A DNA stretch of 64,000 nt from Thermoanaerobaculia bacterium (GTDB lineage Bacteria; Acidobacteriota; Thermoanaerobaculia; Gp7-AA8): positions 3,277 to 67,276 of the forward strand of contig DATLFC010000074.1 in NCBI GenBank assembly GCA_035525015.1, written 5' to 3'. Below the pieces are notes generated by a model. The model did no database searches. It saw nothing but the letters and a program-made list of their open reading frames with translations, and was not told the origin of the DNA. How positions within the stretch are numbered: the stretch's first letter is position 1; every line of letters begins with the position of its first letter. The position numbers were made by a program, and so were the translations under genes. Positions 8,127-43,199 of this stretch are shown piece after piece.

Positions 8127-9335
8127 CTACGACTGGTCGACCCGCAGGTTGACCGATACGGCGTGAACATCGGCCGTATCCCCGAGCTCGACGCGCTCCG
8201 ACTGCTCATGGACGACGTCGTCGCCGTTCTCGAAGGATACCGTAACGCGCATGGCACGGGCGCCCGAGAGCGTCTCCGGCGGAACGGCCAGATTGATGGC
8301 CTTCTGAATCTCCCGGCCGACGCCGCGCGGGATGTCGGGCTTCGGAGCGGCATTCTTCTTCTTCTTGAGCTTGGGAGACGAAGAGGTGGCGCGCTTTCGC
8401 AGCGCCTCCAGCTCGGCCATGACGTCGATCGTCGACCGCACTTTCACCGTTTTCACCGGCGGCTTTTCGGGCACCGGCTCCACCGCTGCATCGCCGCTCC
8501 GCTTTTCCTCCGTCCGTCCGGAGGCGACGCCCGCCCCGACCGGCTCCATCGCTTCTTCACTCTCACTGAGCTCTTCGATGAGCTCCTCCACCGCCCGCGC
8601 GCGATCGCCGCCGCCGAACGATGGTGTGACGACGTTGGCCGATGCTTCCGGTTTTCCGGCAGCCTCGGGCCGTGGTTGTTCCTTCATGCGGAACTGCGCC
8701 ACATCGCCGAGCGTCCGGGCCGTCGGCCGGGCCGGCTCATCGCCCGTCATGCGGCGGCGCAGCGTTCGCAGCGTCAGCTTCGAGATCAGCTTCAGGGTCT
8801 CGAACACGCCCGTCCCGATCGACGCCACCGACTCCACGACTTCGTATTTCCCCTCCGGATCGAGAGCCTGCACCATCGACTCGGCGGTGGCCACGTTCGG
8901 CAGATCGCGTTTATTCAACTGGAGGATCAGCGGGATCTCGTCGAGCACGAGCCCGATCTCGGCCAGGTTCTCGCGCAGATTCCTGAAACTGTCGATGTTC
9001 GCGTCGAACATCGCCTGCTGCGAATCGGCGACGAAGACGATGCCGTCGACGCCTTTCAGCACGAGCTTGCGCGTCGTGTTGTAGAACACCTGTCCCGGAA
9101 TGGTGTAGAGCTGCAGCCGGGTCTTGAAGCCGCCGATCACGCCGACGTCGATCGGAAGAAGGTCGAAAAAAAGCGTCCGGTCCGTCTCGGTCTCCAGGCT
9201 GACCATCTCCCCGCGGCTTCCGGGTGAGGTCTTGGCATAGATGTGGTGGAGATTGGTCGTTTTCCCGCAGAGACCAGGACCGTAATACACGATCTTGGCC
9301 GCCATCTGCATCGTCGCGTAATTGAAGAAGACCAT
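8127..9335 (-). CDS. MglA/SofG-like Ras-family small GTPase with ~200-aa C-terminal extension
   Basis: The N-terminal 195 aa align with motility GTPase MglA (MVFFNY..KIVYYGPGLCGKTTNL..ETDRTLFFD..QLNKRDLP). The tail is a Pro/Glu/Ala-rich linker, a KKKK patch and a ~70-aa terminal domain. Start set at MVFFNY. Confidence 0.8.
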   Translation of the reverse strand: MVFFNYATMQMAAKIVYYGPGLCGKTTNLHHIYAKTSPGSRGEMVSLETETDRTLFFDLLPIDVGVIGGFKTRLQLYTIPGQVFYNTTRKLVLKGVDGIVFVADSQQAMFDANIDSFRNLRENLAEIGLVLDEIPLILQLNKRDLPNVATAESMVQALDPEGKYEVVESVASIGTGVFETLKLISKLTLRTLRRRMTGDEPARPTARTLGDVAQFRMKEQPRPEAAGKPEASANVVTPSFGGGDRARAVEELIEELSESEEAMEPVGAGVASGRTEEKRSGDAAVEPVPEKPPVKTVKVRSTIDVMAELEALRKRATSSSPKLKKKKNAAPKPDIPRGVGREIQKAINLAVPPETLSGARAMRVTVSFENGDDVVHEQSERVELGDTADVHAVSVNLRVDQS

Positions 9336-9386
9336 CCGAACAGGCTCCGGGACCCGGTGCGAAGCAGCGATCGATGGTAGCACCCG

Positions 9387-10139
9387 CTACTTCGGGGTCG
9401 CAAGGCGGGCCGAGGTGATCCAGGCGGCGAGAAGTTTGTACAGTTCTGCAACTTGCGCGTCATCGCCGATCGCGGAGACGTGCCGCGCCATGACCTCCTC
9501 GTCCCCTCGTGCGGCCGGTCCGGTGAAGCGCCGGGCGTCGTCGTGAGCTTTCCAGTTTTGAATGGCCGATTCGGCCAGGGCGACCAGGTCCCGGCGGACA
9601 TCGCCGGCGCCCGCGCGGCGCATCAGATCGGCCGAGACGTCGAGCACCGCGGCGACATAGTTCGCACCGAAGACGGCGGCGGCGTGGTAGAGCGGCTTCT
9701 GCTCGGCCGTCACCTCGGCGAACCGCGCGCCGACCGCCGTGGTGATGAGTCTCGCCGTTTTCGGGTGTTCCCCCTGGAATACCAGCAGCGTATCGGCGAG
9801 ATCGGATGGCTCGCCGACCGGTGGCAGCGCCTTCAGCGGATGGAGCGAGAACCCCCCGGCCGGCGCCGCCAGCGCGCCGCTCGAGTGGAAGATGATCGCT
9901 TCGCCAGAGGGGATCTTCGCGACGATCCCATCGACCGCCCTGTCGCTGACCGCCACGAGCAGCAGTTCCGCCTCCGCGGCGAGCTGGTCGACGTCGCGGC
10001 GGCGAGCGCCCAGCAGCTCCGGCAGGCGGCTTTCCGACTCCGGCCGCAACCAGACGCCGGACAACGGCCATCCGATCCGCAGCCATGCCGTCCCCCAGGC
10101 CCATGCCGCGCGGCCGCCACCAAGAATGCCGAGACGCAT
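9387..10139 (-). CDS. Rossmann-like NAD(P)-binding / DUF2520-family protein
   Basis: N-terminal GxGxxA dinucleotide fold (LGILGGGRAAWAWG) and a C-terminal DUF2520-like region. Confidence 0.55.
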   Translation of the reverse strand: MRLGILGGGRAAWAWGTAWLRIGWPLSGVWLRPESESRLPELLGARRRDVDQLAAEAELLLVAVSDRAVDGIVAKIPSGEAIIFHSSGALAAPAGGFSLHPLKALPPVGEPSDLADTLLVFQGEHPKTARLITTAVGARFAEVTAEQKPLYHAAAVFGANYVAAVLDVSADLMRRAGAGDVRRDLVALAESAIQNWKAHDDARRFTGPAARGDEEVMARHVSAIGDDAQVAELYKLLAAWITSARLATPK

Positions 10140-10157
10140 CGTATCCTTAGAGTAACC

Positions 10158-10186
10158 GGTTCACGGTGAACCGTTCACCGTGAACC
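10158..10186. promoter_or_regulatory. Tandem palindromic operator-like sites GGTTCACGGTGAACC / GTTCACCGTGAAC
   Basis: Two abutting perfect inverted repeats (GTTCAC-N-GTGAAC) in the 54-bp divergent intergenic region. They lie 8 nt upstream of the ATG at 10194. Confidence 0.4.
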
Positions 10187-10193
10187 GTCTGTC

Positions 10194-10541
10194 ATGAAAC
10201 GCTTCGTCCTCGCGTTCGCACTGTTTGCGGCCCCGCTCCGGGCCGCGCCGCCGACCACCTGTGGCCTGCCGGACGACTATTCGCGCGCCCTCTGCGCTTA
10301 CCAGCAGCGTGATTTCGGGACGGCGGAACGGGTATTCGGCTCGATCGTCGATGCGGGGGAGGAAGCGCCGCAGACTTTGAAGGGGATGTACTTCCTGGCG
10401 CGGACGTACATGAAAACCGGGCGGTTTGATGAGGCTGCCGGGCTGCTGGTCAGAATCTACGAGACCGATCGGACGTTTTACGGCAGCTGGAGTTGCGACT
10501 TCCTGCTGGGAGAGTGCCGGAGGGCGCTGGGGAAGGATTAG
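10194..10541 (+). CDS. Small secreted TPR-like protein
   Basis: Signal peptide MKRFVLAFALFAAPLRA. Short helical repeat region. Its stop abuts the downstream EBP start (taGATGccg). Confidence 0.5.
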   Translation: MKRFVLAFALFAAPLRAAPPTTCGLPDDYSRALCAYQQRDFGTAERVFGSIVDAGEEAPQTLKGMYFLARTYMKTGRFDEAAGLLVRIYETDRTFYGSWSCDFLLGECRRALGKD

Positions 10542-12068
10542 ATGCCGGCATCGAACTTCGAACTTCGCCGAAAGCTGCTGCAACTCGAGGCGCTCCACGA
10601 CCTCGGCCGGGCGCTGAACACGCTGCGGCCGGAGGCTGAGCTCCTGGAGGAGCTGATGCACCGGGCCATCGCGGTGCTCGACGCCACGACCGGCTTCATC
10701 TTCTCGCTGGATGAAAAGCTCAACATCCAGCACCTCTTCACGTTTCCTACCGAGCCTCCCCGCGCCGATGCCATCCTGGCCGAGCCTCCGGTGCGGCAGG
10801 TCCTCGCCGCGCGCGAGCCGATCTCGGTCACCGTGACGCGGTTCCTGGGGGAACAGGCGAACGATCTGCTGGTCGCGCCCATGGTGTCGGGCGACGTGAT
10901 CGTCGGCGTGATCGGCGTGGGCGGCAAGGAGGCTCGCGGCGCGAAGAGCGGGAGCTTCGTGGAGGACGATCTCCGCTTTCTGGCCTCGCTGGCGTCGATC
11001 GGAGGCGCCGCCGTCGACAATACGCGGCGCTTCCACAGGCTCGATCTGGTGCGCGAGACGCTCGAAGACGAGAATCGTTCCCTCAAGCAAAGGATGCTGC
11101 GCGAGTACAGCGACCGCTTGATGGTGGGCGAATCGCCGAAGATGCAGCGAGTGATCGATCTGGTGGCACGGGTCGCCAACAGTCAAGCCAACGTTCTCAT
11201 CCGCGGCGAATCGGGAACGGGGAAAGAAATGGTGGCGCGCCTCATTCACGGCAACTCGTCGCGCAAGGATCGGCCCTTCGTGGCCATCAACTGCGCCGCG
11301 CTGCCGGAGACGCTGCTCGAATCGGAGCTGTTCGGCATCGAGCGTGGCGTGGCCACCGGCGTCGAGGCACGCCCCGGCAAGTTCGAGCTGGCGAAGGGCG
11401 GGACGGTCTTCCTCGACGAGGTGGGCGACATTCCTCTCGCTCTCCAGGCCAAACTGCTTCGCGTGCTCCAGGAACGGGAGGTCGAGAAGCTCGGCGGGCG
11501 GCGTCGGATCCCGATCGATGTCCGCATCCTGTCGGCGACGCATCGCGGCCTCGAGGAGATGATCGAGAAGGGAGACTTCCGCCAGGATCTGTATTACAGG
11601 CTGAAAGTGGTCGAGATCACACTGCCGCCCCTCCGCGAGAGGAGGGAGGACATTCCCCGGCTCGTCCGCTTCTTCCTCGAGAAGTACGGGCGCCGCGAAG
11701 GTCTCAAAGACGTGCGCATCACGCAGGAGGCCCTCCAGAAGGTGATGCGATACCCCTTTCCCGGGAACGTGCGCGAGCTGGAGAACCTCATCGAAGGGGC
11801 TCTGGCGCTGACCGTGGATCCGGTCATCGATCCGGGGGATCTGCTCCTGCCGGAGTCGGCGGCCGGCACCGACGGAGGGGAACTGACGGGCGACTTCCCC
11901 CCGCTCGAAGAGCTGCAGAACCGATACATCGCCCGGGTTCTGGCGCACACGAAGGGGAACATGTCGGCCGCGGCGAAGATCCTCGGGATCGACAGGAAGA
12001 CCCTCTACCGGAAACGGGCAGAACTGTCCCATCTAGGCACATCTGGGGAATCTTGGGACGTTCACTAG
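10542..12068 (+). CDS. Sigma-54-dependent transcriptional activator (GAF - AAA+ - Fis HTH)
   Basis: N-terminal GAF-like domain. AAA+ sigma-54 interaction motifs (GESGTGKE, GAFTGA-like ESELFG, DEVGDIPLALQAKLLRVLQE). C-terminal helix-turn-helix. Confidence 0.9.
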   Translation: MPASNFELRRKLLQLEALHDLGRALNTLRPEAELLEELMHRAIAVLDATTGFIFSLDEKLNIQHLFTFPTEPPRADAILAEPPVRQVLAAREPISVTVTRFLGEQANDLLVAPMVSGDVIVGVIGVGGKEARGAKSGSFVEDDLRFLASLASIGGAAVDNTRRFHRLDLVRETLEDENRSLKQRMLREYSDRLMVGESPKMQRVIDLVARVANSQANVLIRGESGTGKEMVARLIHGNSSRKDRPFVAINCAALPETLLESELFGIERGVATGVEARPGKFELAKGGTVFLDEVGDIPLALQAKLLRVLQEREVEKLGGRRRIPIDVRILSATHRGLEEMIEKGDFRQDLYYRLKVVEITLPPLRERREDIPRLVRFFLEKYGRREGLKDVRITQEALQKVMRYPFPGNVRELENLIEGALALTVDPVIDPGDLLLPESAAGTDGGELTGDFPPLEELQNRYIARVLAHTKGNMSAAAKILGIDRKTLYRKRAELSHLGTSGESWDVH

Positions 12069-12227
12069 TAACCGCTGTGTATTCAGCAATTACTGGTCCA
12101 AAACTCCTGTCACAGCAGATGTTGTGGCGAATTGACCCAACGGCTGTCTCAGAGGTTGCGTGAGCCAGTCTCGTGTAAACTACGCATGGTCAGAAGGTTA
12201 GGAGGGACAGGACTGATCCGGCATGGG

Positions 12228-12242
12228 TGGCAGTCGCGTTGC
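12228..12242 (+). promoter_or_regulatory. Sigma-54 (-24/-12) promoter candidate TGGCAG-N5-TTGC
   Basis: tggcagtcgcgttgct has GG and GC with exact 10-nt spacing. It lies 35 nt upstream of the GAGGGGGG Shine-Dalgarno and ATG of the small-peptide ORF, directly downstream of the EBP gene. Confidence 0.6.
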
Positions 12243-12276
12243 TCAACGGTGACCTCGACGAATGAGGGGGGAACCG

Positions 12277-12444
12277 ATGAGCAATTACGCACAAGCCCGC
12301 GCCAAAACCGAGTCGCTGCTCAGCGCCAGCTACGTTCTGCCGTCCGTGCTGGCTGTGAACACCGTGGCGCTCTTCGCGCTCGACCGGGTGGGAGGAATCC
12401 CGCACTGGATCAAGACGGCCGCTGCCCTTTTCCTCGCCTTCTGA
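12277..12444 (+). CDS. Small hydrophobic membrane peptide (55 aa), first gene of sigma-54 operon
   Basis: A strong RBS (gaggggggaaccgATG) and a hydrophobic sequence LPSVLAVNTVALFAL...AAALFLAF. There is no homology call. Confidence 0.4.
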   Translation: MSNYAQARAKTESLLSASYVLPSVLAVNTVALFALDRVGGIPHWIKTAAALFLAF

Positions 12445-12472
12445 GCTCTCCCCGCGCCCGCAGGACACTCGG

Positions 12473-12925
12473 ATGACCATGACCGCCGAGCGGCAGATGG
12501 AGCTCACCCTCCCGATGGTTCCGGACATCGAGATCGCAGCCGCGCGCGCGGCCGGCAATCTGGCCCGGGAAGTGGGGATGAGCGCCGAGAAGATCGACGA
12601 GATGGCTCACGCGATCATCGAGGCCTGCATCAACGCCCGCGAACACTCCTGTTGCGCCGATCAGCGCATCTACTTAAGATTCGTCGGCACCTACCAGGGC
12701 GACGGCAATCCGCGGATCGACGTCTGGATCACGGACCATGGTCGCGGATTCGATCTGGCCGAGGCACGCACGCGCCGGAAGAAGCTCGGCCCCGCCTACA
12801 AACGAGGTCGCGGCATCCAGCTCATGGAAGCGCACATGGACGAGGTGGAGATCATCAGCGGGGAAAGCGGCACCACCATCCACATGGTGAAGCTCGAGAA
12901 TCCCGCAGTCGAGAAAACATCATGA
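12473..12925 (+). CDS. Anti-sigma regulatory factor (Ser/Thr kinase), RsbW/SpoIIAB-like
   Basis: GHKL/HATPase N box (EACINAREH), G1 (DHGRGF) and G2 (GRGIQLM). Confidence 0.8.
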   Translation: MTMTAERQMELTLPMVPDIEIAAARAAGNLAREVGMSAEKIDEMAHAIIEACINAREHSCCADQRIYLRFVGTYQGDGNPRIDVWITDHGRGFDLAEARTRRKKLGPAYKRGRGIQLMEAHMDEVEIISGESGTTIHMVKLENPAVEKTS

Positions 12926-13278
12926 CCGAGGAATTGAGAGTCGCTGTCGAACGACGCCCTGCCGGAGCCATCCTCTACACCAAGGGGTACATCAACAACG
13001 TCGGTGGCGAGGAGATCGCCAACCGCGCCTACGAGCTGATGGATGACGGCGTCCAGACCCTGCTGCTGAACCTGAAGGAAACGAAGATCGTCAACTCGAT
13101 CGGCATCAGCATCCTCATCGAGATCATCGAGAAGATGATGGAGAAGGGAGGCCGTATCTCGTTCTGCTGCCTCACCCCCGTCATCCACAAGACCTTTCAG
13201 ATCATGGGGCTGGCCAATTACGCCGCCATTTACGACACCGAGGACGCGGCGACCAAGGACCTCGGCTTCCAGCGCTGA
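12922..13278 (+). CDS. STAS-domain anti-sigma factor antagonist (RsbV/SpoIIAA-like)
   Basis: 118 aa. Its start overlaps the upstream stop (ATGA). The fold matches SpoIIAA/STAS, with the phosphorylatable Ser region NSIGISIL. Confidence 0.8.
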   Translation: MTEELRVAVERRPAGAILYTKGYINNVGGEEIANRAYELMDDGVQTLLLNLKETKIVNSIGISILIEIIEKMMEKGGRISFCCLTPVIHKTFQIMGLANYAAIYDTEDAATKDLGFQR

Positions 13279-13313
13279 GCAGGATCCGCTCTCGGACTGA
13301 TATTCTCGTCCCC

Positions 13314-14942
13314 ATGCCTCAGGTGCACCGGTTCGCGGATTTTCTGACCGACCTGCAGCAGATCGACCGCACGTCCATCGATGCGCAGGCGTCGAAGATC
13401 GTGGAGGCTTTCGCCCGTCACACGGCCTTCGAGATCAGCGCGTTGTATCTGCGCGATGGCCGCGAACGCTCGATGCGCCTGGCGGTGAAGTCCCAGCAGC
13501 TCGTCGCCCCGGAGATTCTCGATCGCAGCGGCGGGGAGCTCCCGTTCCAGCCACGGCCGCACCTCGTTCTCCCGCTCATCAGTCATCGCGAGGAGCTGGG
13601 ACTGCTCGCGCTCACGCGCCGCGGACCGGAGGAACCGAGCGAGGATGATGTGGCGCTCGTTCGCGCGGCCGGCCACTACCTCAGCACGATCATCGCCAAC
13701 CAGCGCCTGCTGCAGGAAACGAGGGAAGGGGAGTTTCAGCTCAAGTACCGCCTCTGGGAGCTGGAGTCGCTGTACGACATCGGCCTCTCCATCGCCTCGA
13801 CGCTGAACATCGACGAGGTCGCGGACGAGATCCTCTTCCGCATGATCTCTCTGATCAACGCCCGGCGCGCCGCGCTTTTCCTTCGCCAGGGCGAACGGTT
13901 CGTGCTCTTCCGCTCGTTCGGCGCCGTGCGCGGCGACTTCCTCGATCAGGACCTCGCTTCGGCGCTGATGAAGGAAGGGCAACCCATCCGCTTCGAGGAG
14001 CACCTCGAGTGCATCTTCCCCGGCTGCTCCGCGTTCGTCGCCGTTCCCGTTCGCGGCAACAACAGCATGGTGGGGATCCTCGCAGCGGCCGATCGGGAGA
14101 GCCGCGATGGCACCATCGGCCAGTTCGAGCCGAACGAGCTTCGCCTTCTCGGTCTCTTCGCCTCCCAGGCCGCGATCGCACTCGAGAACGCCCGGCTGCA
14201 CCGGGAAGCCCTCGAGAAACAGGCCATGGACCGCGACCTCGAGCTGGCCGCGACGATCCAGCGCGACATCCTTCCCAAGGCCATCCCCGTCGTTCCGGGA
14301 CTCGAGCTCGCGGCGCTGTCACGGCCGGCGCGGCAGGTCGGCGGTGATTACCACGCCTTCGTCGAGCGCGATGGCCTCCTGACCATCGTCGTCGCCGACG
14401 TGGCCGGGAAGTCGATGCCGGCGGCGCTCCTCGTGTCGGCGCTCCATGCGGCGGTCCAGCTCCTGTTCGCCGAAGGTCGCGCTCTCGGCGACATCGCCAC
14501 GGAGCTCAACAAACATCTCCACCGCTGGTCGGCCGAGAACAAATTCATCACCATGATCATGGCCTCGATCGATCAGGAATCGGACACGATCGAATACGTC
14601 AACGCCGGCCACAATCCCGGCTACGTCGTCGTGGACGGCAAGCTGGAGATGCTCAAGTCCCAGGGCCTCCCCTTCGGTATTCTCGGGCAGAGCCGCTACA
14701 TGACCCAGACGCGTCCGCTCCCGCGAGGCTCACGCGTTCTCCTCTACAGCGACGGCATCACCGAAGCGGAGAACGTGGCCGGTGACGAGTTCGAGGACCA
14801 CCGGCTGCAGGCGCTCATCGAACGCCACTCTTCCGCCACCGCCGTCGAGCTGCGCGACCGGATCGCCGAAGCCGTCGAGGAGTTCGTCGGCGAGGCGCCG
14901 CAGAAGGACGATCAGACCCTCGTGATCGCGCGCCGCACCTGA
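13314..14942 (+). CDS. GAF-domain PP2C-type serine phosphatase (RsbU/SpoIIE-like)
   Basis: Tandem GAF-like N-terminal half. PP2C motifs GGDYHAF, VADVAGKSMPAAL and YSDGITEAEN. Confidence 0.85.
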   Translation: MPQVHRFADFLTDLQQIDRTSIDAQASKIVEAFARHTAFEISALYLRDGRERSMRLAVKSQQLVAPEILDRSGGELPFQPRPHLVLPLISHREELGLLALTRRGPEEPSEDDVALVRAAGHYLSTIIANQRLLQETREGEFQLKYRLWELESLYDIGLSIASTLNIDEVADEILFRMISLINARRAALFLRQGERFVLFRSFGAVRGDFLDQDLASALMKEGQPIRFEEHLECIFPGCSAFVAVPVRGNNSMVGILAAADRESRDGTIGQFEPNELRLLGLFASQAAIALENARLHREALEKQAMDRDLELAATIQRDILPKAIPVVPGLELAALSRPARQVGGDYHAFVERDGLLTIVVADVAGKSMPAALLVSALHAAVQLLFAEGRALGDIATELNKHLHRWSAENKFITMIMASIDQESDTIEYVNAGHNPGYVVVDGKLEMLKSQGLPFGILGQSRYMTQTRPLPRGSRVLLYSDGITEAENVAGDEFEDHRLQALIERHSSATAVELRDRIAEAVEEFVGEAPQKDDQTLVIARRT

Positions 14943-15015
14943 CCCGCTCTGTTACAAGCCGGCGCCGCGGCGTAACCGCCATCCCCCCCGTTCGTCTATC
15001 CGGAAGGAGGACACG

Positions 15016-15558
15016 ATGAAACGTACGTCGCTGGCGGTGACACTCTCCCTTCTGGTCCTGGCCACCGGAGCCCTGCTCCATGCGCAGAGCTCGAGTACGC
15101 TGACCGTCAAACCGTCGGAGATGCGCGACGGCGAGACGAAGACCATCACGGACGACGGACGGACCATCACCGTCCGGCGCGACGGCGACACCACGCGCGT
15201 TGCGATCGACGGAGCCGCAGCAACGGAGACCCTCACGATCACACGCGAAGGCGGGCGGATCCTCATCGGCCGGCTCTCGGCCGATGGCAGCCGGAGCCTG
15301 GTGATCGGCCCCGATCGCGACCGCATCGCCGTCGACGGTCTCGACCTCGACAGGTTCGAGGCGCTGCCGCGGTTCCGTTCCATTCCGGAGCGGAGCCCGC
15401 GGACGGTATTCGTCTGTCCGAAAGACCAGACCACGCTCCGTGTCCCGAAGGACAAGGCCGAGGAGAGCTACCGTTGTCCGGTCGACGGAACGCCGATGGA
15501 GAAGCGCAAAGGACACGGCGTCCAGTTCTTCTTCGACGACTCGGCGACCGAGCTCTGA
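15016..15558 (+). CDS. Secreted hypothetical protein with C-terminal Cys pair
   Basis: Signal peptide MKRTSLAVTLSLLVLATGALLHA. C-terminal VCPKD...RCPVDGTP, a possible zinc-ribbon-like motif. Confidence 0.45.
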   Translation: MKRTSLAVTLSLLVLATGALLHAQSSSTLTVKPSEMRDGETKTITDDGRTITVRRDGDTTRVAIDGAAATETLTITREGGRILIGRLSADGSRSLVIGPDRDRIAVDGLDLDRFEALPRFRSIPERSPRTVFVCPKDQTTLRVPKDKAEESYRCPVDGTPMEKRKGHGVQFFFDDSATEL

Positions 15559-16374
15559 TCAGCGCCCGCGGAACCGCGGCGCGCGTTTCTCGAAAAAGGC
15601 GGCCATGCCGGCAGCAGCGTCTTCGGAGAGAAACGCGCGCAGCTGATGCTCCCGTTCGAGCGCCAGCTGCGCACGGAGGTCGTTCCTTTCCGATTCGCGC
15701 AGCGCCTTCTTCAGATCGGCGAGCGGCAGCGGGGCGGCGTCGGCAAACGCCGCGGCAAGACGCTGCGTCTCCTCGGACAGAATCGCCGGCGGCACGACCC
15801 GATCGACCATGCCGATCTCCGCTGCCTCGGACGCGGCGACCATCCGCCCCGTGGCCATCAGCTCGAAGGCGCGACTGCGGCCGGCCAGACGCGGCAGAAG
15901 CCACGTTCCGCCCCAGTCGGGATGCAGTCCGATCCTGATGAACGTCTGACCGAGCTTCGCCTCTTCGGAAGCGATGCGGTAATCGCAGGCCAGCGCGAGG
16001 TTGCAGCCGGCCCCGGCGGCGACGCCGTTGATGCTGGCGATCACCGGTTTCGCCATTTCCACGATCGCCGTGATCACGGCGCTGCCGGCGTCGAGCAGTT
16101 TGCGGAAGGAGCCGGCGTCGCGCTCCTTCTGCAGGGCGGCCATGAAGTCGACGTCGCCGCCGGCGCAGAACGCACGGCCGGCGCCGGTGACCACGACGCT
16201 GCGGCACGAAGGGTCTTCCGCGGCGGCCTGCACCGCGGCCAGCAGATCCTCCCGCATCGTGCCGCCGAAGGCGTTCAGCTTTTCAGGACGGTTGAGCGTG
16301 ATCGTGGCGACGCCGCCGTCGCGAAGGGCGTAGTCGATGAAGGACATGCCTGCGGAGTTTAACTGTAGACTCAT
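15559..16374 (-). CDS. Enoyl-CoA hydratase/isomerase family protein
   Basis: Crotonase fold motifs (VVTGAGRAFCAGGD, INGVAAGAGCNLALACD). Confidence 0.85.
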   Translation of the reverse strand: MSLQLNSAGMSFIDYALRDGGVATITLNRPEKLNAFGGTMREDLLAAVQAAAEDPSCRSVVVTGAGRAFCAGGDVDFMAALQKERDAGSFRKLLDAGSAVITAIVEMAKPVIASINGVAAGAGCNLALACDYRIASEEAKLGQTFIRIGLHPDWGGTWLLPRLAGRSRAFELMATGRMVAASEAAEIGMVDRVVPPAILSEETQRLAAAFADAAPLPLADLKKALRESERNDLRAQLALEREHQLRAFLSEDAAAGMAAFFEKRAPRFRGR

Positions 16375-26132: not shown

Positions 26133-26195
26133 GCCCGGCGATTCTATCCGCCGCCGTTTGCACTGGTAGACCTTTTGCTCTGATGAGGCTCTGTT

Positions 26196-26615
26196 ATGAG
26201 CAACTACACAGCCACCGACCCGGGCCGGTCCCTTGGAACCATCATCAAGGAGCTGACCGCAGACTTCTCGACGCTGTTCCGAAGCGAGGTCGCGCTTCTG
26301 AAGCTCGAGATCAAAGACATGTTCGCCAAACTCGGGACCGGGGGAGCCATGATGGCAGGGGCGGTGTTCCTCTCCATCTTCGGCGTGGCGTTCCTGTTCG
26401 TGACCGTCACCCTCGCGCTCGTCGCCCTCGGTGTGCCGGCATGGGTCTCGTCGCTGATCGTGACGATCGTCCTCTTCGCCGGCGCGGGTGCCCTGGCCAT
26501 GCTGGGCAAGAAGAAGATCGCGGCCGTGCAGTTCGTTCCCAGCGGCTCGGTCGAGCACATCCGGGACGACATCGAGTCCATCAAGTCCGATATCGAGCGT
26601 GTGAGGAGCCGCTGA
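26196..26615 (+). CDS. Holin-X / phage-holin-3_6 family membrane protein
   Basis: Two transmembrane helices and an N-terminal amphipathic segment. The profile is typical of holin superfamily III-like proteins (PF07332). Confidence 0.5.
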   Translation: MSNYTATDPGRSLGTIIKELTADFSTLFRSEVALLKLEIKDMFAKLGTGGAMMAGAVFLSIFGVAFLFVTVTLALVALGVPAWVSSLIVTIVLFAGAGALAMLGKKKIAAVQFVPSGSVEHIRDDIESIKSDIERVRSR

Positions 26616-32332: not shown

Positions 32333-33382
32333 TCAGGCCGCGCGTGGGTTCTTACGGCGATCGGCGATCGTCTCGCGCAGGAATCGGAGCAGCGCCTTCT
32401 CCTCCATGGAGAGGCCCAGCTTGACCACCGGGCTCCCTTTGCGTGTCTTGCGGAGCGACTCGAACGTCTTCCCTTCCATGTATTCGTCGAGCAGCCGCGG
32501 ACAGATGTAGGAAGACTTGCAGACCGCCGGTGTGTTCCCCAGCTGTTCCGCCGTGGCCGTGATGGCCTTGCGCACGTTGCGCTTTCGTGCGGTCTTCGTC
32601 TCGCCCTGCCCCAGCCGGGCCAGGCTGATCGAGCAGAGCAGCGTCCCCGCCCAGGTGCGGAAGTCCTTGGCCGTGAAATTCTCACCGACGACCGACTGGA
32701 TGTAGTCGTTCACGTGGCGGTCCTTGACGTCGACGAGGCGGTCTCCCGACTCGAACTTGAAGAGCTCGCCGCCGCCCGCATGCTTCAGCCGCGCCACGAG
32801 CCTGGCCACTTCCGCGTCGCGCACGGCCCGGCGGTGCTTTTTCTTCCACTTCCCGACATAGTCGAACAGGAGCTTGTCGCCGCTCACTTCGACATGCCTG
32901 CCGTGCACCGTGGTGAGGCCGTACGTCGACTCCGACTTCGCGCTCTTGTCGTTGCCGACGCGAAAAAACCCCTGATCGATCAGGCGCACGATCGCCGCGA
33001 GGATGGTTTCGCGGCCGAGTGTCTCGTGTTTCAGGTCTTTCCGAACACGCTGCCGGAGGCGCGGAAGCGATTCTCCGAACTCGACGACGCGCCGGAACTT
33101 CTCCTCCTCGCGCTGGCTGCGGAAGCGCCAATGATAGAGATACTGGGTGCGTCCTTTCTTGTCGACGCCCACCGCCTGCAGCGGCGAGGAGTCGCTGCGC
33201 GCAATCCGGACGTTCTTCCAGGCGGGAGGGATCCGGAGCTTCCGGATCTGGGCCAGAGTTTTCTCGCCCGATACGGCCATCCGGTCGGCGCTCCGGTAAG
33301 AAAACCCCCGTTCCTTCGATCCCTCGCGGCGGATGCCGTGAAGATCGAGGTGCCACCGCCGCTTCACCGCTCGAGCGGGCAT
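32333..33382 (-). CDS. DNA topoisomerase IB (poxvirus-type, bacterial TopIB)
   Basis: TopIB core with the catalytic S-K-x-x-Y motif (CKSSYICP) and conserved Arg/Lys/His residues. Confidence 0.85.
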   Translation of the reverse strand: MPARAVKRRWHLDLHGIRREGSKERGFSYRSADRMAVSGEKTLAQIRKLRIPPAWKNVRIARSDSSPLQAVGVDKKGRTQYLYHWRFRSQREEEKFRRVVEFGESLPRLRQRVRKDLKHETLGRETILAAIVRLIDQGFFRVGNDKSAKSESTYGLTTVHGRHVEVSGDKLLFDYVGKWKKKHRRAVRDAEVARLVARLKHAGGGELFKFESGDRLVDVKDRHVNDYIQSVVGENFTAKDFRTWAGTLLCSISLARLGQGETKTARKRNVRKAITATAEQLGNTPAVCKSSYICPRLLDEYMEGKTFESLRKTRKGSPVVKLGLSMEEKALLRFLRETIADRRKNPRAA

Positions 33383-36647: not shown

Positions 36648-38582
36648 TCACGGCTTGAACTGGATCATCTGCGCGATCCAGGTCTTGACCCGTTTGCCGT
36701 CTTTCATCGGCGGCGTGTAACGGGCGGCGCGGAAGGCGCGGATGGCCGAGTCGTTGAAGCCGAAGCGCGGTTCTCCCCGGAGGATCTTCACCTCGACCAC
36801 CTCGCCGGTTTCCGAGACCAGGATGCTGGCCATGACCGTCGCTTCCATCTTCTGTCTCGCCGCAATCGGCGGATAGGACGGGCGAGGTTCCCTGATCGCC
36901 GTCGGCACCTCGTCGAGCTCACCCATGTCGACGACGTCACCCTCCCGGATCACCGGCGCGGGCGGAGGCTGCGGCGGAGGCTGCGGCGGAGGCTGGCTCT
37001 GAGGCTGCGTTTGGGTCAAAACGGGAGGAGGAGCGGCCGTGGCGGGATTCGCCAGCGGCTCCAGAGCAGCGATCTGCGTTTCCGACGTCCAGGGCCGCTG
37101 CGCCACGGTGGTCGTGATCTCTTCCTCGCGCTGCGGCATGGCGGCCGCCGGTTCCTGTTCCGCCTGGACCACGGCGGGCTGCGAAGCCACCGTCGAGGTC
37201 AGCGGTGCGTTGCGCGCCTGCTCGCGCCGGAGCTGTTGCGTGTATTCGGCCTGAAGTTTCAGCAGCTCTTCCTGAAGGCGGCGCTTCACCGCTGCGTCGA
37301 ACAGTCTCTTGCGCTCCGCTTCATCGATCTTCGGTTGCGCGGCAGGGGCGGAAGGAGCTTCCGGCTCCTCGACCGTCGGGGAAGCGACGATCGGCTCCGG
37401 GGCGACGACCGGTTGCGGCTGGGGCGCCGGCGGCGTCATCGCGCCGGCGACGTGAACCACGGGAACAGCCGGTGCCGGCCGTTTCGCGCCCAGCGTGAGC
37501 CAGGCCCCGACGCCTGCGGCAGCGAGGACCGTCGCTGCCGCGATACCCACCGCCAGTCTGCTCCTCCCTGCCGCCGGCTTCTCGGCAGCCACCGGCTGCG
37601 CTTCCGCCTGCAGATAGGGAGCGAGGCTGATCTTCGATTCCCTCTCCCGCTCGCCCGCTTCCACCTCCATCTCTTTTTTCAGGAGCGTGCTGAGATAGAA
37701 GGCGAGATTGAAACTCGTGGCGGCATAGCGGCCGCTCGAAGAGAGAGCGGCGAGCGCGGTGTGCACGTCGGATGGACTTGCGTATCGCGCCGCGGGATCG
37801 ATGTTGAGCGACTTCTCCAGAATGGAGCGGATGTCATCGGGAAGCGGATCGCCGGCCATGCTCCTGGCCGCGCGCACGGCGTGCGTAAACGCGCTCGCGC
37901 GCGTGGCGTCGGGCGGCTCATGACCCGTGACCAGAAGGTAAAGGAGTGCGCCGAGCGAGTAGACCTCGCTCGACCTGGAAGCCTGGCCTGAATGCTGCGT
38001 CTCGGGAGCGAAGTAGCGGCCGATCTCGACGGCAACCTTCTCGTCGCGCAGCGACGCGGCCAGTCCGCGCCCCAGCTGCTGCCCTGCCACGCGAATCTCC
38101 CCATCCTCTGTGATCCAGACGAACTGCGGAACGAGTCCTCCGTGCAGCAGACGCTCGGCGCCGAGTCGCAGCTCCGCCGTCGCCGCCAGCGAGAGCGCGA
38201 CACGTTCCACGACGGCGAGGGTCTGATCGAGAGGGATGGGATGCGGCGCGGACCCGGTACCGCGCGCACGGTCGACGATGTAGCGCAGGGAACGACCCGA
38301 TTCATATTCGTGCGCGATCGTGACCACGCCGTTGATGACCGTGATCTGCTGCTCTTTGACGAACGTCGGACCGGTGAGCGACTCCGCGATCTGCTCCGCC
38401 GACTGCGCGGCCGCAAGGAGTGCCTCGCTTCCGCCGCTGAACCGGCGCAGGGCCACCACGCGCCCCGGCGCGCCGTCCTCGATCCTCACCGCCCGGAAGA
38501 GATCGCCGAGTGCATCCGACTCCAGCTTTTTCAGCAGAACGTAAGGACCGAACGTCTCGTAAGGCCTTGCCTTTGCGGCCAT
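36648..38582 (-). CDS. Membrane-spanning pseudokinase (Ser/Thr kinase-like) fused to TonB C-terminal domain
   Basis: Kinase fold has the APE region retained, HRD replaced by HGG, no DFG and a degenerate Gly loop. One transmembrane helix, then a Pro-rich spacer (PPPQPPPQPPPAP). TonB_C motifs at the C-terminus (ARYTPPMKDGKRVKTWIAQMIQFK). Confidence 0.7.
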   Translation of the reverse strand: MAAKARPYETFGPYVLLKKLESDALGDLFRAVRIEDGAPGRVVALRRFSGGSEALLAAAQSAEQIAESLTGPTFVKEQQITVINGVVTIAHEYESGRSLRYIVDRARGTGSAPHPIPLDQTLAVVERVALSLAATAELRLGAERLLHGGLVPQFVWITEDGEIRVAGQQLGRGLAASLRDEKVAVEIGRYFAPETQHSGQASRSSEVYSLGALLYLLVTGHEPPDATRASAFTHAVRAARSMAGDPLPDDIRSILEKSLNIDPAARYASPSDVHTALAALSSSGRYAATSFNLAFYLSTLLKKEMEVEAGERERESKISLAPYLQAEAQPVAAEKPAAGRSRLAVGIAAATVLAAAGVGAWLTLGAKRPAPAVPVVHVAGAMTPPAPQPQPVVAPEPIVASPTVEEPEAPSAPAAQPKIDEAERKRLFDAAVKRRLQEELLKLQAEYTQQLRREQARNAPLTSTVASQPAVVQAEQEPAAAMPQREEEITTTVAQRPWTSETQIAALEPLANPATAAPPPVLTQTQPQSQPPPQPPPQPPPAPVIREGDVVDMGELDEVPTAIREPRPSYPPIAARQKMEATVMASILVSETGEVVEVKILRGEPRFGFNDSAIRAFRAARYTPPMKDGKRVKTWIAQMIQFKP

Positions 38583-38676
38583 CACTACCTCGCGATGCAG
38601 AGTTATTGTTATGGACAAAGGTAAGGATAGCACCAGACCGGCCAGGAGTCAGGCGGGCTGGGGCATGGAAGTCTGC

Positions 38677-42657: not shown

Positions 42658-43152
42658 TTAGTTCTGCTGAACGCCCTCGGGGTACTGAATGAACGAACCG
42701 TTGGAGAAGATGATGTCGCTGTTGAAGTTCGTCGTTGCGCCGCCCAGGTACGTCCCGTCGGCTTTGGCGTCCTTGCCGGTCGAGTGGATCATGTAGTTCT
42801 GAGCCTGACCAGCAGCGCTGCCCCACGCCAGATCGGTGAGGAACGCGTAGGTGTTGCCCCAGCCGTCCTTCATCGGAAGGTTCTTGATGTACGTCGGCTG
42901 CAGCGCAGCCGGCAGCTGGGTGTGGACCTGCGCCGTCAACAGGGTGAGACCGGCCGCGTTGTAGCGGTTGAGGTCCGTCGCGCGCGCTTCCCACGCCGTC
43001 GCGATCGAACGCATGTCGGCCATCGTCCTCTTCTGCTTCGACCGCTGCATCGCGGTCAGAAGGTTCGGAATGGCGATTGCCGCGAGAATGCCGATGATCG
43101 CAACGACGATCAGCAGCTCAATGAGGGTGAAACCTTTCTGCTTCCTTGTCAT
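42658..43152 (-). CDS. Type IV major pilin candidate (prepilin), paralog 1
   Basis: ATG at 43152 preceded by AAGGAGGAAG-N5. Leader MTRKQKG then FTLIELLIVVAIIGILAAIA. The listed ORF extension begins at a TTG, not an ATG. Confidence 0.8.
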   Translation of the reverse strand: MTRKQKGFTLIELLIVVAIIGILAAIAIPNLLTAMQRSKQKRTMADMRSIATAWEARATDLNRYNAAGLTLLTAQVHTQLPAALQPTYIKNLPMKDGWGNTYAFLTDLAWGSAAGQAQNYMIHSTGKDAKADGTYLGGATTNFNSDIIFSNGSFIQYPEGVQQN

Positions 43153-43199
43153 GAACTTCCTCCTTTTCAAACCTCCCTAAGCGCAACCGGTGTACCAGT

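What the first reader, a model, noticed from the sequence alone, without database searches (positions are those of the whole stretch)
10542..14942. Sigma-54-driven partner-switching cassette without a cognate sigma factor
A GAF-containing enhancer-binding protein is followed by a strong -24/-12 match (TGGCAG-N5-TTGC at 12228). Downstream are a 55-aa membrane peptide with a strong RBS, an RsbW-like kinase, a STAS antagonist (ATGA overlap) and a GAF-GAF-PP2C phosphatase. Canonical RsbUVW modules control SigB, but no alternative sigma factor gene is present in the window. The module may therefore regulate a non-sigma target, or a target encoded elsewhere. Its whole expression is gated by a GAF-sensing EBP. 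Two layers of GAF sensing, in both the EBP and the phosphatase, point to small-molecule input such as a cyclic nucleotide or nitrogen signal.
Basis: partly seen in the sequence, partly recalled or inferred. Interest (0 to 1): 0.65.

Follow-up and report, generated by a model that had tools for sequence, protein, structure and literature searches.

The report
Sigma-54-driven partner-switch operon in Acidobacteria
This is a real and strongly conserved four-gene signalling operon (small membrane protein, serine kinase, its substrate protein and a phosphatase), switched on by a neighbouring sigma-54 activator in soil Acidobacteria; it is an uncharacterised variant of a well-known signalling design, not a new kind of system.

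Summary
These are a GAF-AAA+-HTH enhancer-binding protein (EBP), a -24/-12 promoter (TGGCAGTCGCGTTGCT, 12228-12243), a 55-aa membrane protein, an RsbW-like kinase, a STAS protein with the phosphorylatable serine, and a GAF-GAF-PP2C phosphatase. No sigma-70-family gene lies in the window.

The window comes from a Thermoanaerobaculia (Acidobacteriota) genome. The cassette is rigidly syntenic in at least 76 species of that class, and the GG-N10-GC promoter core is kept in 76 of 76. More distant versions (kinase about 43% identical) occur in Holophagales and in many metagenome contigs. There the promoter is seen almost only where the EBP is present.

The EBP carries GVATGV in place of the canonical sigma-54-contacting GAFTGA loop, and this variant is invariant in all 79 + 25 relatives checked.

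No sigma gene lies near the cassette in about 170 loci. However, partner switches without a linked sigma factor are well documented (SypA/SypE, BtrUVW, RbaVW, Chlamydia Rsb). SypA/SypE are also transcribed by a sigma-54 activator.

Verdict: real, functional, uncharacterised, a new variant of a known kind. The target is unknown and the GAF ligands are unknown. Interest is moderate.

The parts
10194..10541 (+). Small secreted TPR protein (115 aa) directly upstream of the EBP and co-oriented with it; probably co-transcribed.
   Evidence: Pfam TPR_16/TPR_19. Syntenic upstream of the EBP in 70 Thermoanaerobaculia loci. A larger TPR protein holds the same position in distant relatives.
10542..12068 (+). 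Enhancer-binding protein: GAF sensor, sigma-54-type AAA+ ATPase with lid, Fis-type HTH. The L1 loop is GVATGV instead of GAFTGA.
   Evidence: Pfam. PDB alignment to ZraR and NifA shows canonical Walker A/B motifs, with GVATGV aligned to GAFTGA. GVATGV is invariant in 79/79 orthologs and 25/25 distant relatives. Median identity across species is 80.6%.
12123..12139 (.). Candidate upstream activator site. It is a degenerate dyad of the TGT-N11-ACA type (here TGTGGCGAATTGACCCA; class consensus TGTGGCAAATTGCCACA), about 105 bp upstream of the -24 element.
   Evidence: In the alignment of 77 intergenic regions the outer TG and CA are at least 95% conserved and the consensus is palindromic. Only 34 loci match the consensus within 3 mismatches. 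Binding by the EBP is inferred, not shown.
12171..12181 (.). Nearly invariant element TCGTGTAAACT between the dyad and the promoter; function unknown (second regulator site or part of a bending site).
   Evidence: Conservation in the 77-sequence alignment.
12190..12202 (.). IHF-like site (TCAG-N4-TTAGG; class consensus ATCAGAGGCTTAGG) about 30 bp upstream of -24.
   Evidence: Conserved CA...TTAG columns. The resemblance to WATCAR-N4-TTR is from my own knowledge and was not tested.
12228..12243 (+). Sigma-54 promoter, TGGCAG-TCGCG-TTGCT (GG at -24, GC at -12). The predicted transcription start is near 12253-12256.
   Evidence: Unique in the window, with 0.02 expected by chance. Exact TGGCA-N6-TTGC in 68/76 species, and TGGCG or CGGCA in the other 8, so GG-N10-GC is kept in 76/76, within an otherwise variable spacer of about 70% identity. 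Also present in Holophagales and in 48/64 metagenome relatives.
12277..12444 (+). 55-aa hydrophobic protein, first gene of the operon. The conserved C-terminal half reads LAVNT..AL.AL...GGIP.WIKTAAALFLAF.
   Evidence: Called in related contigs. Found in 79 loci with a codon-position entropy pattern typical of coding sequence. A positionally equivalent small hydrophobic ORF occurs in distant relatives. No Pfam or NCBIfam match.
12473..12925 (+). RsbW/SpoIIAB-like GHKL serine kinase (150 aa) with intact N box (EACINAREH), G1 box (DHGRGF) and G2 box (KRGRGIQLM).
   Evidence: Pfam HATPase_c_2. Best PDB match is B. subtilis RsbW 6m36, 1.4e-8, with the motifs aligned. Median identity 76% within the class. 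The orthogroup is isolated; the next relatives are at most 47% identical.
12922..13278 (+). Single-domain STAS protein (118 aa) with the phosphorylatable serine (Ser59 in VNSIG, aligned to the DSSG serine of SpoIIAA). It is the most conserved protein of the cassette.
   Evidence: Pfam STAS. PDB alignment to SpoIIAA. Median identity 82.8% within the class, against 71.2% for IleRS. It is 63-65% identical to the Holophagales and L093 versions, where the kinase is only 42-44%.
13314..14942 (+). GAF-GAF-PP2C (SpoIIE/RsbU-type) serine phosphatase (542 aa) with the GGD, DVxGK, SDG and DD metal-site motifs present.
   Evidence: Pfam. PDB alignment to the phosphatase domains of Rv1364c, a P. aeruginosa response regulator (3es2/3eq2) and a putative serine phosphatase (6k4e). 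GAF-PP2C follows kinase and STAS in 38/45 distant loci.

Best explanation
This is a self-contained regulatory unit of Acidobacteriota. The NifA-type one-component activator (GAF-AAA+-HTH, 10542-12068) most likely binds the degenerate TGT-N11-ACA dyad about 105 bp upstream. When an unknown ligand acts on its GAF domain, it uses ATP to open the sigma-54 holoenzyme complex at the -24/-12 promoter (12228-12243).

That promoter drives one operon: small membrane protein, RsbW-like kinase, STAS protein and GAF-GAF-PP2C phosphatase. Once made, the three soluble proteins form a partner switch. The kinase phosphorylates the STAS protein on Ser59. The phosphatase removes the phosphate when its own GAF-GAF module receives a second signal. 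The phosphorylation state of STAS decides who binds whom.

The output is not encoded next to the cassette. I favour the non-canonical mode, in which the unphosphorylated STAS protein is itself the effector that binds an unlinked partner, as with SypA, BtrV, RbaV and HsbA. The small membrane protein may localise the module.

Shown here: the gene content, motif integrity, promoter conservation and EBP-promoter co-occurrence. Inferred: EBP binding to the dyad, sigma-54 dependence in vivo, the phosphotransfer, and the nature of the output.

The confidence of 0.7 applies to the sigma-54/EBP-driven functional partner-switch operon. Within it, the STAS-as-output mode is only about 50% likely.
For: Domains and motifs are documented.

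Promoter:
- It is unique in the window.
- GG-N10-GC is kept in 76/76 Thermoanaerobaculia species inside a variable spacer, at a fixed distance of about 50 nt from the small ORF.
- A dyad, an invariant box and an IHF-like footprint lie upstream.
- No sigma-70-like promoter was found in 10000-15700 by the simple scan.

Conservation of the architecture:
- The same EBP / promoter / small ORF / kinase / STAS / GAF-PP2C order is found in Holophagales CP064972.1 and in metagenome L093, with only 42-53% protein identity.
- Among 28 metagenome loci with enough upstream sequence, by my reading of the per-locus tables, 19 of the 20 with an upstream EBP have the promoter, against 2 of the 8 without a detectable EBP. 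The EBP-less GGDEF-type loci have none.

Purifying selection: median identities are EBP 80.6%, STAS 82.8% and kinase 76.2%, against 71.2% for IleRS.

STAS as the output:
- STAS is far more conserved than the kinase, both within the class and between classes.
- A sister clade pairs the same kinase-STAS couple with a GAF-GAF-GGDEF cyclase instead of the phosphatase.
- No sigma-70-family gene lies within the flanks of about 170 loci.

Literature precedents: STAS outputs that do not act on a sigma factor (PMC8256260); sigma-54/SypG-driven sypA and sypE (PMC4517449); a GVATGV EBP with predicted sigma-54 promoters in D. vulgaris (PMC4641369).
Against: - The EBP lacks the GAFTGA phenylalanine. By established PspF and NifA work (my own knowledge) this residue is important for engaging sigma-54, so direct activation by this EBP is not guaranteed.
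- The dyad is degenerate. Only 34 of about 77 loci are within 3 mismatches of the consensus, and the window's own copy is imperfect (no inverted repeat was detected).
- No rpoN gene was seen in the window, although other sigma-54-like sites exist.
- No experimental data exist for any member.
- The sigma search used single-sequence phmmer, so it could miss very divergent ECF sigmas, and it covers only 8-10 kb flanks.
- The argument that a more conserved STAS means STAS is the output rests on my recollection that in Bacillus the kinase is the better conserved partner. That was not tested here.
Confidence: 0.7

Rival explanations
1. Canonical partner switch with an unlinked sigma factor. The RsbW-like kinase is a true anti-sigma factor that sequesters a sigma-70-family protein encoded elsewhere in the genome (a group-3 or ECF sigma, or even the primary sigma as proposed for Chlamydia). 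Dephosphorylated STAS releases it.
For: The best named matches of the kinase are RsbW and SpoIIAB, and the STAS protein matches SpoIIAA/RsbV. The complete kinase/antagonist/phosphatase triad is the canonical layout. Chlamydia shows that such a module can act on an unlinked housekeeping sigma (PMC8256260; PMC4552016 listed).
Against: No sigma-70-family gene is in the window or within the flanks of about 170 related loci. The kinase scores far below the RsbW and SpoIIAB family cut-offs (50 vs 145 bits). The kinase evolves faster than the STAS protein.
Confidence: 0.3
2. Feedback circuit on the sigma-54 system itself. The kinase or the STAS protein binds the dedicated GVATGV EBP (or sigma-54), in the way PspA acts on PspF or NifL on NifA. 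The operon would then autoregulate, and the EBP may have further targets elsewhere.
For: This particular EBP clade (GVATGV in 79/79 and 25/25) is strictly co-inherited with the cassette over deep divergence. The EBP, kinase and STAS are all more conserved than a housekeeping synthetase. Partner-protein control of EBPs is established for PspA/PspF (cited in PMC4641369).
Against: A dedicated EBP next to its single target operon is common without any feedback. A kinase-STAS pair also occurs without an EBP in the GGDEF clade. There is no direct evidence of an interaction, and the dyad was not found elsewhere in the window or loci.
Confidence: 0.1
3. The adjacent protein is not the activator of this promoter. 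Because it lacks GAFTGA, it would act independently of sigma-54 (like Rhodobacter NtrC or TyrR), and another canonical EBP would fire the -24/-12 promoter.
For: The L1 loop is GVATGV, with the phenylalanine replaced by alanine. The authors of PMC4641369 themselves flagged this variant as possibly impairing sigma-54 binding.
Against: By my reading of the per-locus tables, the promoter and this EBP co-occur in 19/20 loci against 2/8 without the EBP, and they do so across lineages. The rest of the AAA+ domain is fully canonical. The D. vulgaris GVATGV EBP also sits beside predicted sigma-54 promoters.
Confidence: 0.07

Closest known systems
Bacillus subtilis RsbU-RsbV-RsbW (sigma-B) and SpoIIE-SpoIIAA-SpoIIAB (sigma-F) partner switches
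   Same: A three-protein core of GHKL serine kinase, STAS substrate with a conserved serine, and PP2C phosphatase. The kinase and STAS genes are translationally coupled. The best sequence matches in the PDB are RsbW and SpoIIAA.
   Different: No sigma gene is in the operon or nearby. Transcription comes from a sigma-54 promoter with a dedicated EBP. The phosphatase input is GAF-GAF, not an RsbT-binding or membrane domain. A small membrane protein is added. All scores are far below the family cut-offs.
Vibrio fischeri syp locus: SypG (sigma-54-dependent activator), SypA (STAS) and SypE (kinase/phosphatase)
   Same: Partner-switch genes are transcribed by a sigma-54 activator. The STAS protein is phosphorylated on a serine and acts on an unknown, apparently non-sigma target (PMC4517449; PMC8256260).
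   Different: SypG is a response regulator, not a GAF one-component EBP. SypE fuses kinase, receiver and PP2C in one protein. The genes sit inside an 18-gene polysaccharide locus, whereas here the switch is a stand-alone operon.
Other sigma-unlinked partner switches: Bordetella BtrU/V/W, Rhodobacter capsulatus RbaV/W/Y, Chlamydia RsbU/V/W, Pseudomonas HsbR/HsbA
   Same: RsbUVW-like proteins without a cognate SigB-type gene. The output runs through the STAS protein or an unlinked factor. The PP2C domain here aligns to P. aeruginosa response-regulator chains 3es2/3eq2, which I take from memory to be the HsbR/PA3346 phosphatase domain.
   Different: Different sensory domains and different transcriptional control. 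None is reported with a dedicated sigma-54 EBP, and no member from Acidobacteriota has been studied.
Desulfovibrio vulgaris DVUA0100, an EBP with a GVATGV loop
   Same: The same three substitutions in the GAFTGA motif, and co-localisation with predicted sigma-54 promoters (PMC4641369).
   Different: DVUA0100 has an unrelated N-terminal region and is predicted to control type III secretion genes on a plasmid. Whether the two are specifically related was not established (one search was uninformative).
NifA-type GAF-AAA+-HTH one-component EBPs (NifA, FhlA, NorR)
   Same: The same domain order. The best NCBIfam hit is NifA (371 bits), and the dyad is of the TGT-N(10-11)-ACA type.
   Different: The score is below the NifA equivalog cut-off (529). 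There are no nif genes, the L1 loop differs, and the ligand is unknown.

Membership tests
Sigma-54 (-24/-12) promoters | GG and GC doublets exactly 10 bp apart within TGGCAC-N5-TTGCW | tested here: met
   TGGCAGTCGCGTTGCT at 12228-12243 has 1 mismatch to the consensus and is unique in the window.
Sigma-54 (-24/-12) promoters | Conservation of the element relative to its flanks, and a position upstream of a gene | tested here: met
   76/76 species keep GG-N10-GC, about 50 nt from the small ORF, in a spacer of about 70% identity. The element is present in distant relatives.
Sigma-54 (-24/-12) promoters | Transcription depends on rpoN and an EBP | not testable with these tools
   This needs transcript mapping and mutants.
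Bacterial enhancer-binding proteins | Sigma-54 interaction AAA+ domain (PF00158) with Walker A/B motifs, plus a DNA-binding HTH | tested here: met
   PF00158 at 3.7e-68 and HTH_8 at 2.4e-12. GESGTGKE and DEVGD align to ZraR and NifA.
Bacterial enhancer-binding proteins | GAFTGA loop that contacts sigma-54 | tested here: not met
   The loop is GVATGV, aligned to the GAFTGA of ZraR and NifA. It is invariant in 79/79 and 25/25 relatives.
NifA (TIGR01817) | Score above the equivalog cut-off | tested here: not met
   370.8 bits against a cut-off of 528.85.
RsbW/SpoIIAB anti-sigma serine kinases | HATPase_c_2 fold with N, G1 and G2 ATP-binding boxes | tested here: met
   PF13581 at 1.1e-18. The boxes align to RsbW 6m36.
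RsbW/SpoIIAB anti-sigma serine kinases | Score above the RsbW or SpoIIAB equivalog cut-offs | tested here: not met
   49.6 vs 145 bits, 42.9 vs 155 and 39.5 vs 135.
RsbW/SpoIIAB anti-sigma serine kinases | A cognate sigma factor gene in the same operon or neighbourhood | tested here: not met
   None in the window (Pfam). None in 85 + 80 related loci.
RsbW/SpoIIAB anti-sigma serine kinases | Binds and inhibits a sigma factor | not testable with these tools
   This needs interaction assays.
RsbV/SpoIIAA anti-sigma antagonists (single-domain STAS) | STAS domain with a phosphorylatable serine at the start of helix 2 | tested here: met
   PF01740 at 6.2e-11. VNSIG aligns to MDSSG of SpoIIAA. The serine is invariant in A2 and A3.
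RsbV/SpoIIAA anti-sigma antagonists (single-domain STAS) | Score above the TIGR00377 superfamily cut-off | tested here: not met
   42 bits against 53.45.
RsbU/SpoIIE PP2C phosphatases | SpoIIE/PP2C domain with metal-binding aspartate motifs | tested here: met
   PF07228 at 3.2e-46. GGD, DVxG and SDG align to Rv1364c and the P. aeruginosa chains 3es2/3eq2.
   Only generic GAF/GAF_2/GAF_3 matches were found, and there is no named family. The ligand cannot be assigned from sequence.

The most novel reading that the evidence does not exclude
The cassette and its dedicated GVATGV-loop activator form a closed circuit in which the partner switch acts on the sigma-54 machinery itself. The kinase or the STAS protein would sequester the EBP or sigma-54, which would be the first partner-switching control of enhancer-dependent transcription. 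Alternatively, the cassette is the master general-stress switch of Acidobacteriota, working through a non-sigma output.
Probability: 0.12. Interest if true: 0.8.

Novelty: new variant of a known kind. Interest (0 to 1): 0.42.

Why it matters
Acidobacteriota are among the most abundant soil bacteria, and almost nothing is known about how they sense stress.

This cassette is one of their best-conserved regulatory units. Its EBP, kinase and STAS protein are more conserved than isoleucyl-tRNA synthetase across about 80 species, so it probably controls something central.

It also supplies strong comparative evidence on the EBP loop. Activators with a GVATGV loop are consistently paired with canonical -24/-12 promoters. 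That is not expected from the mutational literature on the GAFTGA phenylalanine. It would be worth testing biochemically.

The design itself, a partner switch without a linked sigma factor and under sigma-54 control, is not new.

Tried and rejected
- Exact look-up of the phosphatase in public assemblies found nothing on record.
- Contexts of the representatives P0131 and P0128 were on contigs under 1 kb and gave no information.
- tblastn of the EBP against plasmids, meant to test a specific link to D. vulgaris DVUA0100, returned only generic EBP similarity.
- A search for further copies of the dyad (up to 3 mismatches) in the window and 85 loci, to define a regulon or autoregulation, found copies only at or just upstream of the cassette's own intergenic site.
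- An inverted-repeat search in the window's own intergenic region found nothing, because the dyad is degenerate here.
- An Rfam scan of 9800-15800 gave only sub-threshold chance hits, so there is no known riboswitch or leader.
- The simple sigma-70 promoter and terminator scan found no promoter. Its two terminator-like hits lie inside genes and were disregarded.
- Clustering of neighbouring ORFs across 36 long loci, looking for a recurrent candidate target, gave two recurrent extra families, each in 15 loci. One is a protein-isoaspartate methyltransferase (PCMT) downstream, confirmed by Pfam for L091 and by the contig annotations for L091 and L093. The other is a TPR protein upstream. The remaining recurrent neighbours checked by Pfam were unrelated metabolic genes.
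- Literature searches for a described sigma-54/EBP-controlled RsbUVW module in Acidobacteria or elsewhere found none.
- I considered that the dyad might be an RNA hairpin or terminator of the EBP transcript, because some species have perfectly symmetric variants. I rejected this because many species have asymmetric half-sites and there is no T-tract.

Full report
**1. What is in the window**

ORF listing and Pfam confirm every element of the finding.
- A secreted TPR protein lies at 10194-10541.
- A GAF / sigma-54-AAA+ / lid / HTH_8 activator lies at 10542-12068.
- A 208-bp spacer follows.
- A 55-aa hydrophobic ORF lies at 12277-12444, behind GAGGGGGG.
- A 150-aa HATPase_c_2 kinase lies at 12473-12925.
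- A 118-aa STAS protein lies at 12922-13278, with an ATGA overlap onto the kinase stop.
- A 542-aa GAF-GAF-SpoIIE/PP2C phosphatase lies at 13314-14942.

The second GAF of the phosphatase is a full match. The first GAF is only a partial match, though above the cut-off.

The motif TGGCAGTCGCGTTGCT at 12228-12243 is the only exact match to TGGCAS-N5-TTGCW in 64 kb, with 0.02 expected by chance. A simple scan finds no sigma-70-type promoter anywhere in 10000-15700. Rfam finds no known RNA element there.

**2. Are the proteins intact?**

- The kinase aligns best to B. subtilis RsbW (6m36). Its N box (EACINAREH), G1 box (DHGRGF) and G2 box (KRGRGIQLM) are in place.
- The STAS protein aligns to SpoIIAA, with its VNSIG serine on the phosphorylated DSSG serine.
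- The PP2C domain aligns to the phosphatase domains of M. tuberculosis Rv1364c, a P. aeruginosa response regulator (3es2/3eq2) and a putative serine phosphatase (6k4e). The GGD, DVxG and SDG motifs are conserved.
- The AAA+ domain of the EBP is canonical, with one exception. Where ZraR and NifA have GAFTGA, it has GVATGV.
- None of the proteins reaches the curated cut-off of any named NCBIfam family. The scores are NifA 371 against 529, RsbW 50 against 145, and anti-sigma antagonist 42 against 53. Membership therefore holds at the domain or superfamily level only.

**3. No sigma factor**

Pfam scans of essentially all substantial ORFs in the window found no Sigma70 domain. phmmer with E. coli FliA, RpoS and RpoE against all six-frame ORFs of the window and 85 related loci gave no hit at E up to 10, and the spiked controls were recovered. 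The same queries gave no hit at E up to 1e-4 in 80 further metagenome loci. Single-sequence searches can miss very divergent ECF sigmas. The flanks are only 8-10 kb, so a sigma factor elsewhere in the genome is not excluded.

**4. Where it comes from and how conserved it is**

Near-identical kinases (75-93% identity) are named Thermoanaerobaculia. Three long contigs show the identical gene order, including the divergent DUF2520 / MglA-like GTPase / SLT-LysM / IleRS block.

A scan of one genome per species with a STAS alignment found 102 species. The best 80 are all Thermoanaerobaculia or Acidobacteriota MAGs. tblastn mapping shows TPR-EBP-small ORF-kinase-STAS-PP2C with rigid spacing wherever the contig is long enough.

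Median identity to the window is as follows:

| Protein | Median identity |
|---|---|
| STAS | 82.8% |
| EBP | 80.6% |
| Kinase | 76.2% |
| IleRS | 71.2% |
| PP2C | 64.3% |
| Small ORF | 62.5% |

The regulatory core is thus under stronger constraint than a housekeeping synthetase. The small ORF shows coding-type variation, with entropy by codon position of 0.74/0.44/1.19.

**5. The promoter is a phylogenetic footprint**

In 76 species the spacer between the EBP and the small ORF is variable, yet 68 carry exact TGGCA-N6-TTGC. The other 8 carry TGGCG or CGGCA with the same spacing. All 76 therefore keep GG-N10-GC, mostly 50 nt from the small ORF.

The alignment exposes three more upstream footprints:
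- A dyad with consensus TGTGGCAAATTGCCACA, whose outer TG and CA are at least 95% conserved. The window copy is TGTGGCGAATTGACCCA at 12123-12139.
- A nearly invariant TCGTGTAAACT at 12171-12181.
- An IHF-like ATCAG-N4-TTAGG at 12190-12202.

The order dyad, then bend site, then -24/-12 is the textbook layout of an enhancer-dependent promoter. However, the dyad is degenerate. Only 34 loci lie within 3 mismatches of the consensus, and the window's copy is not detectably palindromic. Binding by the EBP is inferred.

**6. The cassette is wider than one class**

An exhaustive search shows that the kinase orthogroup is isolated. Nine clusters score below 1e-30, and after that identity is at most 47%.

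Three of those distant kinases sit on long contigs:
- A complete Holophagales genome (L091) has the same order: GAF-EBP, small hydrophobic ORF, kinase, STAS, GAF-PP2C.
- A metagenome scaffold (L093) has that order too. It also carries a PDZ-GAF-PP2C and a large TPR protein further upstream.
- A third contig (L092) has kinase-STAS followed by GAF-GAF-GGDEF, with no EBP and an HD-GYP-type gene nearby.

L091 and L093 carry TGGCAGCAGAGTTGCT and TGGCGCGGAGGTTGCG upstream of the small ORF, and both EBPs again have GVATGV. Between classes the STAS protein keeps 63-65% identity. The kinase keeps only 42-44% and the EBP 50-53%.

A metagenome scan seeded with the divergent STAS proteins returned 80 more loci. 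Their content was as follows:
- Kinase-STAS is followed by GAF-PP2C in 38 of the 45 loci with enough downstream sequence, and by GAF-GGDEF in 4.
- Every EBP whose loop could be read has GVATGV (25 of 25).
- TGG[CT]N-N6-TTGC lies within 600 nt upstream of the kinase in 48 of 64 loci.
- By my count from the per-locus tables, the promoter is present in 19 of the 20 loci with an upstream EBP, and in 2 of the 8 without a detectable one.
- The EBP-less GGDEF clade has no promoter match.

This co-occurrence is the strongest argument that this EBP fires this promoter despite its unusual loop.

**7. The GVATGV loop**

The same triple substitution was noted in D. vulgaris DVUA0100. Its authors judged that it "might interfere" with sigma-54 binding, but they predicted sigma-54 promoters and a type III secretion regulon for it (PMC4641369). 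Here the variant is invariant in 79 orthologs and 25 distant relatives, each next to a conserved -24/-12 element. I could not show whether the Desulfovibrio protein is specifically related.

**8. How it most likely works**

The gene content, motif integrity, promoter conservation and EBP-promoter coupling are shown. The rest is inferred. A ligand acting on the EBP's GAF domain licenses ATP-dependent opening of the sigma-54 complex, and so the synthesis of the four proteins. The kinase phosphorylates STAS Ser59, and the GAF-GAF phosphatase reverses this in response to a second input.

For the output I favour the non-canonical mode, with STAS as the effector on an unlinked partner (about 50%). 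Four observations point that way:
- STAS is the slowest-evolving component.
- The kinase is comparatively free to drift.
- A sister clade couples the same kinase-STAS pair to a diguanylate cyclase.
- No sigma gene is ever linked.

A classical anti-sigma role for the kinase against an unlinked sigma factor remains a serious rival (about 30%). Feedback onto the EBP or sigma-54 (about 10%) and a non-cognate EBP (about 7%) are less likely.

**9. Comparison with known systems and novelty**

Partner switches with no linked sigma factor, or with a STAS output, are reviewed in PMC8256260. The examples there are Vibrio SypA/SypE, Bordetella BtrUVW, Rhodobacter RbaVW and Chlamydia RsbUVW.

In V. fischeri the sigma-54-dependent regulator SypG directly activates the syp locus. 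[quoted passage not shown] Neither the missing sigma factor nor sigma-54 control is therefore unprecedented.

Four things are new here:
- The stand-alone operon format with a dedicated one-component GAF EBP.
- The invariant GVATGV loop.
- The conserved small membrane protein.
- The breadth and depth of conservation in Acidobacteriota.

No description of such a module was found in the searchable literature. I class it as a new variant of a known kind, of moderate interest.

Noticed in passing
window 10542-12068 (L1 loop at about residues 269-274 of the EBP): The EBP has GVATGV where nearly all sigma-54 activators have GAFTGA. This is invariant in 79 orthologs and 25 distant relatives, all beside conserved -24/-12 promoters. 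The same variant was flagged for D. vulgaris DVUA0100 (PMC4641369).
   Followed up: partly
L092 8001-10386; also L094, L096, L097, L099, L130: A sister clade has the same kinase-STAS pair followed by GAF-GAF-GGDEF (a diguanylate cyclase) instead of GAF-GAF-PP2C. It has no EBP and no -24/-12 motif. L092 also has an HD-GYP-type gene nearby. This hints at a link to c-di-GMP signalling in relatives.
   Followed up: partly
L093 2069-6049 and many metagenome loci (e.g. L102, L108, L110, L119, L145, L168): In non-Thermoanaerobaculia relatives a second phosphatase (PDZ-GAF-PP2C, about 840 aa) and a large TPR protein (about 470-490 aa) precede the EBP. This recalls the two input phosphatases of B. subtilis sigma-B. 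The window keeps only a 115-aa TPR protein.
   Followed up: partly
L091 11966-12601, L093 10606-11331; one ORF cluster spanning 15 of 36 long loci: A protein-L-isoaspartate O-methyltransferase (PCMT) gene lies downstream of the cassette in L091 and L093 (Pfam and contig annotation). It belongs to an ORF cluster found in 15 of 36 long loci, and the other members were not checked individually. No such gene follows the cassette in the window.
   Followed up: partly
window 10159-10185: Two adjacent perfect palindromes, GTTCACGGTGAAC and GTTCACCGTGAAC, lie in the 54-bp divergent spacer between the DUF2520 gene and the TPR-EBP genes. The number expected by chance is 0.11. They are absent from all 93 other loci held at that point, so they are a lineage-specific operator-like site.
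   Followed up: partly
window 43182-43197 (-), upstream of pilin-like gene 42658-43170 (-): A sigma-54-like motif, TGGTACACCGGTTGCG, lies immediately upstream of a type IV pilin/pseudopilin gene. It is very close to the annotated start, so it may be spurious or the gene start may be misplaced.
   Followed up: no
window 26164-26179 (+), upstream of 26196-26615 (+): A sigma-54-like motif, TGGTAGACCTTTTGCT, lies just upstream of a holin-X-like (Phage_holin_3_6) membrane protein gene.
   Followed up: no
window 8127-9383 (-): A 418-aa small-GTPase-like protein (MglA-like N-terminus, long low-complexity C-terminal extension, no Pfam hit above threshold) is conserved in synteny next to the cassette on the opposite strand, together with a DUF2520 protein.
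   Followed up: no
window 36648-38633 (-): A Ser/Thr protein kinase domain is fused to a C-terminal TonB_C domain (661 aa), which is an unusual architecture.
   Followed up: no
window 32333-33382 (-): A bacterial type IB topoisomerase (Topoisom_I plus Top1B_N_bact domains).
   Followed up: no
window 44715-52562 (-): Three consecutive large ORFs with C-terminal YfhO-like matches (780, 962 and 788 aa; the latter two ORF calls overlap and one match is weak) plus a family-2 glycosyltransferase. This is probably a cell-surface glycan module.
   Followed up: no
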